Shown: piece after piece, positions 3,111-49,670 of the stretch
Numbering within the stretch: position 1 is the first letter of the stretch
Layout: each line of letters opens with the position of its first letter
From: Eledone cirrhosa
Lineage: Eukaryota
Reading direction: 5' to 3'
DNA length: 64,000 nt
NCBI GenBank assembly: GCA_964016885.1
Contig: OZ024751.1
Coordinates: 13,454,001 to 13,518,000, forward strand
Program-made: the position numbers and the translations under genes
Notes under the pieces: model-generated
The model's input: only the letters and a program-made list of their open reading frames with translations
Database searches by the model: none
Told to the model about the DNA's origin: nothing

Positions 3111-3718
3111 GGTGGCTGCCAACTCGTTTTCGAGTACGGCCACTACTTTATATCCATGTAGGAGAACCCCTACTGATGCGCTGAACGAGTGTGACTTTTT
3201 AGTCCAGCCAGCGACTTGAAAACTCTGGTACAAAGACTACACTTGTGACAATTATTGACACATAGTGTTGGGCCCATGGTACCATGTGACGACAAGTGCA
3301 GAGAGATCTCCAGATATAAAGCAATGCCTGTGCCGTGAAGCTTTTATAGTGAGCAAAGGCACTGCACAAAGCCAGTCCCACTCTCTTAACCAAGATGATA
3401 TTTACCAAAAAGAAGAACAAGTCAACATCATTGGATACCATCAGGGTTGGAGGTGTTATATCAGAGTTTTCCTTCTCCTAGAATTCTGCCTTGACAAAGG
3501 CTAAGGGGTCATCTCTCCCGGTGATTTTGGATGGCCATTGACTCTTAAGAGCTCCTTTGCCCTTTGACAGGTTTTGTTTTTAGTCCTGCAGGATGTCCAA
3601 AGTCACCCTCCTCACCAAGAAACCTTGGTGGGGTTGCCAGTTTAGTCGCCAACGACCCGACCATGAGACAGGTTGTACTGGGATACATGTTACCAGTAGC
3701 ACCAACTGGTGACCTGAC
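3111..3718 (-). mobile_element. 608-bp non-autonomous retroelement with RTE-like 5' and 3' parts, copy 1 (full length)
   Basis: Near-identical to 4442-4937, 11217-11825 and the reverse complement of 49063-49670. Sense strand has the motif CCTTAGCCTT..AAGGC..CTAGGAGAAGGAAAACTCTGAT (recalled from RTE 5' UTRs) and ends in a stem-loop GTGGC..CTCG-AAAA-CGAG..GCCAC followed by an (AT)n tail. No TIRs or LTRs. Confidence 0.75.
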
Positions 3719-4441
3719 ATATATACATACATATATATATATACATACATATATATATACATATATACATACATATATATATACATATATACATACATAT
3801 ATATATACATATATATATATACATATATATATATACATATATATATATACATATATACATACATATATACATACAAATATATATACATCTAGTATATATA
3901 TATATACATATATACATACATATATATACATACAAATATATATACATCTATATATATATATATACATACATATATACATACATATATATATACAAATATA
4001 TATACATCTATATATATATACATACATATATACATACATATATATATACAAATATATATACATCTATATATATATATATATATACATACATATATACATA
4101 CATATATATATATATACATACATATATATATACATATATATATACATATATATATATATATATACATACATATATATATACATATATATATACATATATA
4201 TATATATATATATATATATATATATATATATATATATATACATACATATATACATATATGTATATATATATATACATACATATATATATACATATATATA
4301 TATATATACATACATATATATATACATATATATATATATACATACATATATATATACATATATATATATATATACATACATATATATATACATATATATA
4401 TATATATACATACATATATATATACATATATATATATATAT
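3719..4441. repeat. (TA)n/(TACA)n microsatellite
   Basis: Direct reading. Confidence 0.97.
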
Positions 4442-4937
4442 GGTGGCTGCCAACTCGTTTTCGAGTACGGCCACTACTTTATATCCATATAGGAGAACCC
4501 CTACCGATGCGCTGAACGAGTGACTTTTAGTCCAGCCAGCGACTTGAAAACTCTGGTACAAACACTACACTTGTGACAATTATTGACACATAGTGCTGGG
4601 CCCATGGTACCATGTGACGACAAGTGCAGAGAGATCTCCAGATATAAAGCAATGCCTGTGCCGTGAAGCTTTTATAGTGAGCAAAGGCACTGCACAAAGC
4701 CAGTCCCACTCTCTTAACCAAGATGATATTTACCAAAAAGAAGAACAAGTCAACATCATTGGATACCATCAGGGTTGCAGGTGTTATATCAGAGTTTTCC
4801 TTCTCCTAGAATTCTGCCTTGACAAAGGCTAAAGGGTCATCTCTCCCAGTGATTTTGGATGGCCATTGACTCTTAAGAGCTCCTTTGCCCTTTGACAGGT
4901 CTTGTTTTTAGTCCTGCAGGATGTCCAAAGTCACCCT
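4442..4937 (-). mobile_element. 608-bp element, copy 2 (5'-truncated by about 110 bp)
   Basis: Same 3' terminus (ggtggctgcc on +) as the other copies; stops at ...aaagtcaccct. Confidence 0.75.
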
Positions 4938-6581
4938 GTATATATATATATATATGTATATATATATGTATATATATATGTATATATATATATATGTATA
5001 TGTATATATGTATGTATATATATATATATATATATGTATATATATATGTATGTATATATATATATATATATATGTATGTATATATATATATATATATATA
5101 TGTATGTATATATATATATATATATATATTATATGTATGTATATATATATATATATATATATATGTATGTATATATATATATATATATATATGTATGTAT
5201 ATATATATATATATATATATATATATGTATGTATATATATATATATATGTATATATATATGTATGTATATATATATATATATATATATATACATACATAT
5301 ATATATACATATATATATATATATACATACATATATATATACATATATATATATATACATACATATATATATACATATATATATATATATACATACATAT
5401 ATATATACATATATATATATATATACATACATATATATATATATATATATATATATATACATACATATATATATATATATATATATACATACATATATAT
5501 ATATATATATACATACATATATATATATATATATATATATATACATACATATATATATATATATATATATACATACATATATATATATATATATATACAT
5601 ACATATATATATACATATATATATATATATATATATACATACATATATACATATACATATATATATATATACATATATATATACATATTATATACATATA
5701 TATATATATATATACATATATATATATACATATATACATACATACATATATACATACATACATATATATATATACATATATATATATATATATATATATA
5801 TACATATACATATATATATACATATATATATACATATATATATATACATATATATATATATATATATACATATACATATACATATATACATATATATATA
5901 CATATATATATATATATACATATATATATACATATATATATACATATATATATATATATACATATATATATATATACATATATATATATATATACATATA
6001 TATATATATATATATATATATACATATATATATATATATACATATATACATATATATATATATATACATATATACATATATATATATACATATATATATA
6101 CATATATATATATACATATATATATACACATATATATATACATATATATATATACATATATATATATACATATATACATATATATATATACATATATACA
6201 TATATATACATATATATATATATATATACATATATATATACATATATATATATACATATATACATATATATATTCATATTTACATATACATATATACATA
6301 TATATATATTCATATTTACATATCAATATATATATATACATATATATATATATATATATATATATGTATATATATATATAAATATATATATATACATATA
6401 TGTATATATATTCATATATACATACATATATATATACATATATATCTACATATACATAAATACATATATATATACACATATATCTACATATACATAAATA
6501 CATATATATACACACACACATATATATATATATATATATATATATATATATATATATATATATATATATATATATATATAT
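4938..6581. repeat. (TA)n microsatellite with an orientation switch (TATG to TACA) near 5290
   Basis: Direct reading. Confidence 0.96.
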
Positions 6582-48439: not shown

Positions 48440-48929
48440 CACACGCTCAGAGAATCACAGCTATAAAGACACACACATCCAAAGAAATACACACACACAC
48501 AACCACATGCACAGTCAAAGACGTGCACATATACTGCTATATATATATATATATATATATATATATATATATATATATATATATATATATATATGCCCTT
48601 AAATGCGTGTATATAGAGATATATAAGTATAAGAGGCGGTTCAAATTTAAAAATGAAGAACCATTTATACACGAGTTTATGTATTTCGTAAAGTGTGTGT
48701 GTGTGTGTGTGTGTGTACACATATTGATAAATGTATAACTCCTAATAAATGTAATACACAATGTATTGAATACTATTCTTTCGTGTGTCTATATATATAT
48801 ACATGTGTGTATATGCGCATACAGAAATGTGCGCATGAATATATATATATACACATATACATATATATATGTGTGTATACATTTTTGTGGGGGAAACCTA
48901 TATATATATATATATATATATATATATAT

Positions 48930-49034
48930 ATAGGTTTCCCCCCACAAAGATGTATACACACTTTCATTACCTATACAGGCAATATTTATTAGAATGCTGT
49001 TGAAGTATGTATACAGTTTTTGGGAGACACCCTG
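48930..49034. mobile_element. Tiny Tc1/mariner-type MITE
   Basis: Right end gtatacagtttttgggagacaccctg-TA; related to 52791-52867 and 55038-55112. Confidence 0.65.
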
Positions 49035-49062
49035 TATATATGCATATATATATATATATTAT

Positions 49063-49670
49063 GTCAGGTCACCACTTGGTGCTACTGGTAACATGTATCC
49101 CAGAACAACCTGTCTCATGGTCGGGTCGTTGGCGACTAAACTGGCAACCCCACCAAGGTTTCTTGGTGAGGAGGGTGACTTTGGACATCCTGCAGGACTA
49201 AAAACAAAACCTGTCAAAGGGCAAAGGAGCTCTTAAGAGTCAATGGCCATCCAAAATCACCGGGAGAGATGACCCCTTAGCCTTTGTCAAGGCAGAATTC
49301 TAGGAGAAGGAAAACTCTGATATAACACCTGCAACTCTGATGGTATCCAATGATGTTGACTTGTTCTTCTTTTTGGTAAATATCATCTTGGTTAAGAGAG
49401 TGGGACTGGCTTTGTGCAGTGCCTTTGCTCACTATAAAAGCTTCACGGCACAGGCATTACTTTATATCTGGAGATCTCTCTGCACTTGTCGTCACATGGT
49501 ACCATGGGCCCTTCACTATGTGTCAATAATTGTCACAAGTGTAGTGTTTGTACCAGAGTTTTCAAGTGGCTGGCTGGACTAAAAAGTCACACTCGTTCAG
49601 CGCATTGGTAGGGGTTCTCCTACATGGATATAAAGTAGTGGCCGTACTCGAAAACGAGTTGGCAGCCACC
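49063..49670 (+). mobile_element. 608-bp element, copy 4 (full length, sense on +)
   Basis: Reverse complement of 3111-3718 with few substitutions; flanked by (TA)n on both sides. Confidence 0.78.

What the first reader, a model, noticed from the sequence alone, without database searches (positions are those of the whole stretch)
3111..49670. Young 608-bp non-coding RTE-derived element that sits only in (TA)n microsatellites
Seen: four near-identical copies (3111, 4442, 11217 on minus; 49063 on plus). Three share both termini exactly, one is 5'-truncated, all are flanked by TA repeats, and there is no tRNA head, TIR or credible ORF. The 3' end is a stem-loop (GTGGC..CTCG AAAA CGAG..GCCAC) followed by (AT)n. 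Established: bipartite non-autonomous elements made of RTE 5' and 3' UTR parts exist (Bov-A-type elements, the Ceph-SINE central domain), and RTE 3' ends carry a stem-loop plus a microsatellite tail. Inference: an active, probably unnamed microsatellite-targeted family whose own tail may seed or extend the TA tracts.
Basis: partly seen in the sequence, partly recalled or inferred. Interest (0 to 1): 0.75.

Follow-up and report, generated by a model that had tools for sequence, protein, structure and literature searches.

The report
Microsatellite-homing RTE deletion element
This 608-base repeat is a shortened copy of a jumping gene found in the same genome; it has over 27,000 copies, lands almost always inside existing AT/ATGT repeats facing one way (likely because its RNA end pairs with the repeat), and its front end is also joined to an unrelated jumping gene that likely captured it.

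Summary
The element is a 3,452-nt internal deletion of a 4.06-kb RTE-like LINE in the same genome (RTE-C: APE, RT, three C2H2 fingers). It keeps nt 1-431 of the 5' UTR and the last 181 nt, including the final zinc finger, both 96-99% identical to the parent. At least 27,235 copies carry the junction; the parent marker has 193 matches.

Targeting is real but not TA-only. 53 of 57 full-length copies follow an alternating AT/ATGT tract (background 9%; control SINE 2 of 74), oriented 49:2. The parent behaves the same way (17 of 19). Duplications of 9-16 nt and an empty/filled site pair in this window show that the tracts came first, so tail-seeding is not supported.

The element's head is also fused to an unrelated RTE family at four or more junctions, one of which amplified. 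Those chimeras mostly avoid microsatellites (3 of 13), so the head does not set the target. The likely mechanism is a nick at TpA plus RNA-tail/primer pairing.

The bipartite architecture is known. Oriented microsatellite targeting by an RTE was not found in the papers searched. Dfam and Repbase could not be checked.

The parts
3111..3718 (-). Copy 1, full length (608 nt), inside the (TA/CATA)n tract that fills most of 1-16683
4442..4937 (-). Copy 2, 5'-truncated (starts at element nt 110), 3' end intact
11217..11825 (-). Copy 3, full length (609 nt); the filled site of a duplicated segment
49063..49670 (+). Copy 4, full length (608 nt), flanked by (AT)n
49063..49493 (+). 5' part (nt 1-431): the 5' UTR of the parent LINE RTE-C up to about 60 nt before its start codon
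   Evidence: 96-99% identical to L283, L287, L291; joined to the ORF start in 30 of 30 loci
49063..49337 (+). Head (nt 1-275) that is also fused to the unrelated RTE-A family
49299..49321 (+). Conserved RTE 5'-UTR motif; 23 nt identical to OegopSINE in the supplement of PMC5786205
   Evidence: compared by eye
49491..49493 (+). Deletion junction (2-3 nt microhomology); 3,452 nt of the parent removed
   Evidence: joint 2614>6067 in 21 contigs of run X1
49534..49605 (+). Remnant of the parent's last C2H2 zinc finger, followed by the parent's stop codon
49638..49669 (+). 3'-terminal stem-loop, with compensatory changes among related families
6580..9897 (.). Empty-site version of the segment (continuous tract near 7740, no element)
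10098..13866 (.). Filled-site version of the same segment, carrying copy 3; separated from the empty version by an N gap

Best explanation
The element is a 3,452-nt internal-deletion derivative of the RTE-like LINE RTE-C that inserts, like its parent, into pre-existing (AT)n/(ATGT)n tracts in one orientation, and it is likely copied in trans by RTE-C or its sister RTE-B, with the target likely chosen by a nick at a TpA step plus pairing of the RNA's AU/AUGU end with the nicked (CATA/TA)n strand. Shown: the anatomy, the parent, the copy number, the oriented flanks, that the tracts pre-exist, and that the 5' head does not set the target. Inferred: transcription from the retained 5' UTR with a sharp start at the first G; recognition of the 3' stem-loop by the LINE protein; target-primed reverse transcription. 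Also inferred is a feedback loop: a copy that sits in an ATGT tract yields read-through RNA ending in AUGU, which primes best on another such tract. Template switching during reverse transcription of RTE-A likely put the element's head on that unrelated family.
For: Parent: nt 1-431 and 429-609 match both ends of L283, L287 and L291 at 96-99%; APE, RT and C2H2 domains. Counts: 27,235 junction matches against 193 for a parent-only marker. TPRT hallmarks: 5' truncations with a fixed 3' end; duplications of 9-16 nt. Targeting: 53 of 57 full-length copies, oriented 49:2, against a background of 9.0% and 693:695; control SINE 2 of 74. Unbiased copies 10 of 10. Genome-wide, 2,984 of 10,603 exact 5' ends (28%) follow one strict 8-nt alternating pattern, against 2.6% background. 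Parent 17 of 19; RTE-B 13 of 22. Empty/filled pair. Head chimeras 3 of 13; RTE-A 5' junctions 1 of 15 and 3' flanks 3 of 16. Both strands of an (ATGT)n tract carry TpA steps, so a bare TpA preference would not give the orientation bias (reasoning). Stem-loop: 2 of 9 pairs with compensatory change across 8 sequences.
Against: Sequence alone cannot separate tail-primer pairing from longer sequence recognition by the endonuclease. None of the 4 near-full RTE-C copies examined has an intact ORF, so the current driver is unidentified. RTE-B matches the 3' end at only 87% over 30 nt. Informative duplications were found in only 6 of 92 copies (shuffles: mean 1.15, maximum 5), and one of the six is a periodic 30-nt match. 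Truncated copies are less clean (23 of 35). Many of the 92 copies were bystanders in loci fetched for RTE-B or RTE-C, which biases them toward tracts. RTE clade membership rests on architecture and UTR motifs; no tree with named RTE references was built.
Confidence: 0.72

Rival explanations
1. The anatomy is the same, but targeting is set by a sequence-specific APE endonuclease that reads the (CATA/TA)n strand, as proposed for Waldo, Mino, Kibi and Koshi; the tail is a passive copy of the target.
For: It explains the orientation bias equally well. RTE-B and RTE-C (68% identical in RT) share the target. The duplication abuts the element with no tail in L061, L147 and L265. PMC3812793 (passages) says endonuclease cleavage is believed to drive such targeting.
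Against: Pure AT, ATGT and GT tracts are all used, which is loose for a specific nuclease. Tail identity correlates with the cleavage site in other RTEs (PMC6007223, passages).
Confidence: 0.2
2. Insertion is untargeted; the tracts grow afterwards from the element's tail and duplicated target, or copies simply survive in microsatellites.
For: RTE tails do generate microsatellites in Lepidoptera (PMC2887409, abstract). 23 of 92 copies lie directly behind an earlier clan 3' end. A few copies have a short upstream and a long downstream tract, for example L029.
Against: The empty site already has the tract, and the filled one is shorter. Upstream tracts are as long as downstream ones. Other retroposons in the same genome show no enrichment (2 of 74, 1 of 15). 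Passive survival predicts no orientation bias.
Confidence: 0.06
3. The element is a solo LTR or DNA-transposon derivative (read with one flanking base on each side, its ends are TG...CA), or the copies are assembly artefacts.
For: Apparent TG/CA ends; the window has a duplicated segment beside an N gap.
Against: In RTE-A chimeras the base before the first G varies, so TG is target-derived. The parent is a non-LTR element. The junction occurs in contigs of public runs X1, X4 and X14.
Confidence: 0.02

Closest known systems
Bipartite non-autonomous RTE LINEs (Bov-A, RTESINE1/2, WALLSI3, RTE-N2_Lch; PMC5786205, main text parts 1-4 of 5 and supplement passages)
   Same: 5' end plus 3' end of one RTE joined by internal deletion, no RNA-derived head, conserved RTE 5'-UTR motif.
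   Different: Keeps the end of the ORF (last zinc finger); outnumbers its parent roughly 100-fold; confined to oriented microsatellite sites.
Microsatellite-targeting APE LINEs: Waldo (ACAY), Mino (AC), Kibi (TC), Koshi (TTC); also Dong (TAA) (PMC3812793, passages)
   Same: Inserts into pre-existing tracts; ACAY is the complementary strand of the ATGT/GTGT tracts used here.
   Different: Those families belong to R1, Tx1 and R4 (clade labels recalled; PMC6007223 names Tx1 and R1 as the only site-specific APE clades). RTE is not on that list, and the target here is looser.
RTE/Bov-B 'Tn-TA' insertion signature (PMC6007223 and PMC13295347, passages)
   Same: Cleavage near TA; the 3' repeat is proposed to influence cleavage or priming.
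   Different: PMC13295347 states that Bov-B copies are rarely flanked by target resembling their 3' repeat; here nearly all copies are.
5' switching of RTE LINEs in Nicotiana (bioRxiv 10.1101/2022.11.04.512097, abstract and section 12)
   Same: One LINE body with exchangeable 5' heads; template switching is proposed.
   Different: Here the donor is identified: another RTE lineage and its short derivative. Several independent junctions are visible, and the replaced head has a predicted HDV-like fold.
RTE-2_OV of Octopus vulgaris (PMC9115989, passages)
   Same: Single-ORF RTE with a C2H2 finger and a microsatellite-rich 3' UTR.

Membership tests
Bipartite non-autonomous RTE LINE | 5' part equals the 5' end of an autonomous-type LINE | tested here: met
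   nt 1-431 at 96-99% to L283, L287, L291; 30 of 30 loci
Bipartite non-autonomous RTE LINE | 3' part equals the 3' end of the same LINE | tested here: met
   nt 429-609 at 96-97% in the same three copies
Bipartite non-autonomous RTE LINE | No tRNA/5S/7SL head and no coding capacity for RT | tested here: met
   only a 57-codon ORF remnant
Bipartite non-autonomous RTE LINE | Amplified as a unit by TPRT (shared junction, 5' truncations, duplications) | tested here: met
   duplications evident in few copies
RTE clade (parent) | Single ORF with APE and RT, no ORF1, microsatellite end | tested here: met
   ORF starts about 60 nt after the 431-nt head; total length 4.06 kb
RTE clade (parent) | Conserved RTE 5'-UTR domain | tested here: met
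   23-nt identity with OegopSINE, whose matching stretch aligns to RTE-3_BF (by eye)
RTE clade (parent) | RT phylogeny groups with named RTE elements | not tested
   Homologues of RTE-B were mostly unnamed and none was labelled RTE; no tree built
Microsatellite-specific LINE (Waldo-like behaviour) | Oriented insertion into pre-existing tracts | tested here: met
Waldo/R1 clade | ORF1 upstream of the RT ORF (recalled) | tested here: not met
   No room for an ORF1 in RTE-C
Microsatellite-specific LINE (Waldo-like behaviour) | Sequence-specific endonuclease cleavage | not testable with these tools
   Needs biochemistry
Ceph-SINE | tRNA head plus CORE-like domain before the RTE 5' piece | tested here: not met
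HDV-like ribozyme-headed LINE | Nested double pseudoknot starting at the 5' G | tested here: not met
   No hit in the element's first 300 nt with the strict descriptor; two weak wobble-rich hits with the loose one; no Rfam ribozyme

The most novel reading that the evidence does not exclude
An RTE lineage whose target is programmed by its own RNA tail: copies inherit an AUGU end from the tract they sit in and use it to home, in one orientation, to the next tract, so changing the tail would retarget the enzyme. Its hyper-abundant 608-nt derivative also acts as a donor of working 5' heads to unrelated LINEs, replacing an HDV-like ribozyme head with an uncharacterised element that defines the 5' end.
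Probability: 0.35. Interest if true: 0.75.

Novelty: new variant of a known kind. Interest (0 to 1): 0.52.

Why it matters
RTE elements are described as having only weak site preference, and the role of their 3' microsatellite is called unresolved (PMC13295347, passages). This clan offers tens of thousands of oriented insertions, an identified parent, a sister family with long open frames, and natural head-swap chimeras as a control. Together these make the tail-versus-endonuclease question directly testable. The data also reverse the usual reading for microsatellite-rich genomes: here the retroposons mostly follow the tracts rather than make them. The head capture is a case of LINE 5' switching with the donor in hand.

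Tried and rejected
The zinc-finger peptide found no protein in the large database; in the genome it returned only short copies. The top RVT_1 hits (30 loci examined of 150 listed) were a CR1-like family with an (ATT)n tail and no similarity to the element. The DUF6451 families do not share the 3' end. A Cys-spacing pattern for the parent gave 4 matches, all short copies. RTE-B was first taken for the parent and rejected (70-87% identity). Ribozyme at the head: no Rfam family, no strict HDV-like fold, and only 2 of 22 predicted pairs with a single compensatory change among 14 heads. Expression: no RNA holder listed; run X19, a guessed RNA run, gave two low-depth contigs; neither is evidence. 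The pattern wrongly excludes the commonest (G-led) context, so 28% is a floor; 17 of 63 local copies fit it and 21 more fit the G-led form. The control SINE flanks were read 10 nt off the junction. The protein Atlas did not hold the RTE-C sequence. Own-findings look-ups by sequence and by words were empty. Rejected: solo LTR, MITE, segmental duplication, tail-seeding as the main cause of the tracts.

Full report
OBSERVATION. The four copies exist as described: 3111-3718, 4442-4937 and 11217-11825 on the minus strand and 49063-49670 on the plus strand, 97.4-98.2% identical to copy 4. No tRNA gene was found, and no Rfam family came near its gathering score. The window lies at G000:C11:13454001-13518000 of a 3.0-Gb genome. 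The host is likely an octopus; that is my inference from genome size and repeat content, and I did not test it.

COPY NUMBER AND AGE. A 27-nt pattern across the internal junction (at most 1 mismatch) matches 27,235 places, with 0 for the reversed control. The exact 5' 17-mer matches 10,603. Twelve copies at 94% identity or better lie in 589.8 kb of 59 evenly spaced stretches, 9 of which hold a copy. That extrapolates to about 60,000 with wide error. Divergence from the majority state is 1.2-3.5% (median 1.9%) for 24 random or bystander copies.

PARENT. The 3' half encodes a C2H2 remnant. A loose end in run X13 supplied a 22-nt marker that matches 193 places in G000. The 20 loci fetched end in three zinc fingers, or truncated parts of them, and most share element nt 429-609 at 93-97%. 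Of 20 longer stretches, three (L283, L287, L291) are full length: element nt 1-431 at 96-99%, an APE-RT-finger frame starting about 60 nt later, then nt 429-609. L283 is 4,061 nt long and the deletion removes 3,452 nt at a 2-3 nt microhomology. All 30 loci picked by the ORF start carry the head. Contigs of run X1 show the same joint (21 contigs). Single contigs of X4 and X14 show it too. X13 covers a diverged parent end to end and lists other joints, not this one (the table was cut, so absence is not proven). None of the four near-full RTE-C copies examined has an intact frame. A sister family, RTE-B, is 5.4 kb long and 68% identical in RT. It has copies with open frames of about 1,180 aa, about 1% divergence (17 copies, selected for long frames) and a 3' end 87% like the element's. 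It may be the recent driver (inference). Older short families share the head and the 3' hairpin at 70-88%. The hairpin keeps 2 of 9 pairs through double changes in 8 sequences.

TARGET. I scored the 25 nt upstream as alternating if at least 80% of dinucleotides were AT, TA, TG, GT, CA or AC. The set was 92 distinct copies with an intact 3' end, the junction and 60-nt flanks; shorter or edge copies were dropped. 53 of 57 full-length and 23 of 35 truncated copies pass, against 9.0% of random positions. TG/GT exceeds CA/AC on the element's strand in 49 versus 2 full-length copies, against 693 versus 695 in the background. A SINE-like control repeat from this window passes in 2 of 74. The unbiased copies from random stretches pass 10 of 10. 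Genome-wide, 2,984 of 10,603 exact 5' ends follow one strict 8-nt pattern (28%, background 2.6%). That pattern omits the commonest context, and the local sample gives the same 27%. ATGT-rich flanks on both sides are commonest (43 of 76); pure AT on both sides is rare (4 of 76). The parent passes 17 of 19. RTE-B passes 13 of 22, with noisy boundaries. RTE-A passes 1 of 15 at 5' junctions and 3 of 16 at 3' flanks.

THE TRACTS CAME FIRST. Window segments 6580-9897 and 10098-13866 are near-identical (365 of 368 in the unique part). Only the second carries the element. The empty version has a continuous tract, and the filled one is about 120 nt shorter there. They may be alleles or a tandem duplicate. 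Duplications containing a rare interruption occur in 6 of 92 copies (shuffled pairs: mean 1.15, maximum 5); five are 9-16 nt and one is a weak periodic 30-nt match. Three begin at the base after the element. The mean longest duplication is 14.3 nt against 8.6 for shuffled pairs. Median tracts are 65 nt upstream and 67 nt downstream, and 23 of 92 copies sit right behind an earlier clan member. So the tail adds little, and the tandem arrays are re-insertions. A few copies with short upstream tracts leave occasional seeding open.

HEAD CAPTURE. An unrelated RTE-like family (RTE-A: DUF6451, (CTGAGT)n tail, no finger, 29% identical to RTE-C in RT) has two kinds of 5' end among 30 loci. Eight carry a native GC-rich head. 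Sixteen carry element nt 1-275, plus one rearranged case. Two join near nt 283, one near nt 299 and two near nt 590; the last two contain the deletion junction, so the short element itself was the donor. Twelve of the 17 heads scored share one variant absent from 44 short copies and 7 RTE-C-locus heads, so the 275 fusion spread from one founder. These chimeras usually start at the same G yet follow a tract in only 3 of 13 cases. The G is therefore a true RNA 5' end, and the head does not choose the target. The native RTE-A head fits an HDV-like descriptor in 3 of 4 copies, with a P2 of 11-12 bp in two of them. 14 of 100 shuffles gave some hit and Rfam gave none, so this is a prediction. The element's own head shows no such fold.

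MECHANISM. Most likely the RNA starts at the retained head, the LINE protein binds the 3' hairpin, the endonuclease nicks a TpA step in the (CATA/TA)n strand, and the RNA's AU/AUGU end pairs with the primer (about 0.7 overall). Duplications begin with AT at the 3' junction, which fits such a nick. Both strands of an ATGT tract have TpA steps, so orientation needs either pairing or a longer nuclease preference; the latter is the main rival (0.2).

LITERATURE. Bipartite RTE derivatives are well known (PMC5786205, main text parts 1-4 of 5 and supplement passages). The microsatellite-targeting LINEs listed in PMC3812793 (passages) do not include RTE. PMC6007223 (passages) names only Tx1 and R1 as site-specific APE clades and proposes a role for the tail. 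PMC13295347 (passages) says Bov-B is rarely flanked by tail-like targets. PMC2887409 (abstract) and PMC7878876 (passages) treat RTEs as makers or carriers of microsatellites. PMC9115989 (passages) and PMC13282606 (part 1 of 3 and passages) describe octopus RTEs without a target in what I read. 5' switching is described in bioRxiv 10.1101/2022.11.04.512097 (abstract and section 12). Searches found no report of oriented microsatellite targeting by an RTE. Subscription papers, Repbase Reports, Dfam and unread supplements (repeat libraries of the octopus papers) may hold one. Earlier AI notes on this genome reach a similar view of RTEs in (TATG)n tracts; they are not independent support.

VERDICT. 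A real, young, very abundant bipartite RTE derivative with its parent identified. The architecture is known; the targeting behaviour is unusual, and the head capture has an identified donor. New variant of a known kind; interest 0.52.

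Noticed in passing
L178-L207 (e.g. G000:C1:241895000-241902000): RTE-A family with two alternative 5' heads; the native head has a predicted HDV-like fold, the other is taken from the element at four or more junctions. Several copies also show 5' inversions (L165, L182, L195).
   Followed up: yes
L238-L257: RTE-B: 5.4-kb RTE with three C-terminal C2H2 fingers, microsatellite-rich UTRs and several long open frames; often nested in the tract behind the short element (L020, L138, L241, L248).
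   Followed up: partly
L016, L110, L121, L223, L067; L027, L289, L261, L330; L127, L276, L029: At least three older short families share the same 195-nt head and variants of the 3' hairpin; one is a mosaic of this head and an RTE-B-like body.
   Followed up: partly
window 6580-9897 and 10098-13866: Near-identical segments on either side of an N gap, differing by copy 3; possibly uncollapsed haplotypes.
   Followed up: partly
window 26383-26566, 27282-27480, 32201-32383, 33519-33713, 52434-52622, 60791-60978: Six copies of another SINE-like repeat of about 185 nt ending in ATT repeats; not microsatellite-targeted; used as a control.
   Followed up: partly
window 13929-14136, 16745-16995, 25169-25488, 36968-37237, 60973-61146: Near-perfect fold-back palindromes of 170-320 nt; origin not examined.
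   Followed up: no
window 37702-40164: Minisatellite of about 140 copies of an 18-nt unit.
   Followed up: no
L031-L060: Very young CR1-like LINE family with many 945-codon open frames and an (ATT)n tail.
   Followed up: no
runs X4, X5, X14: The short element, or its junction, occurs in single contigs of runs labelled as other organisms; whether this is relatedness, diet, contamination or transfer is unknown.
   Followed up: no
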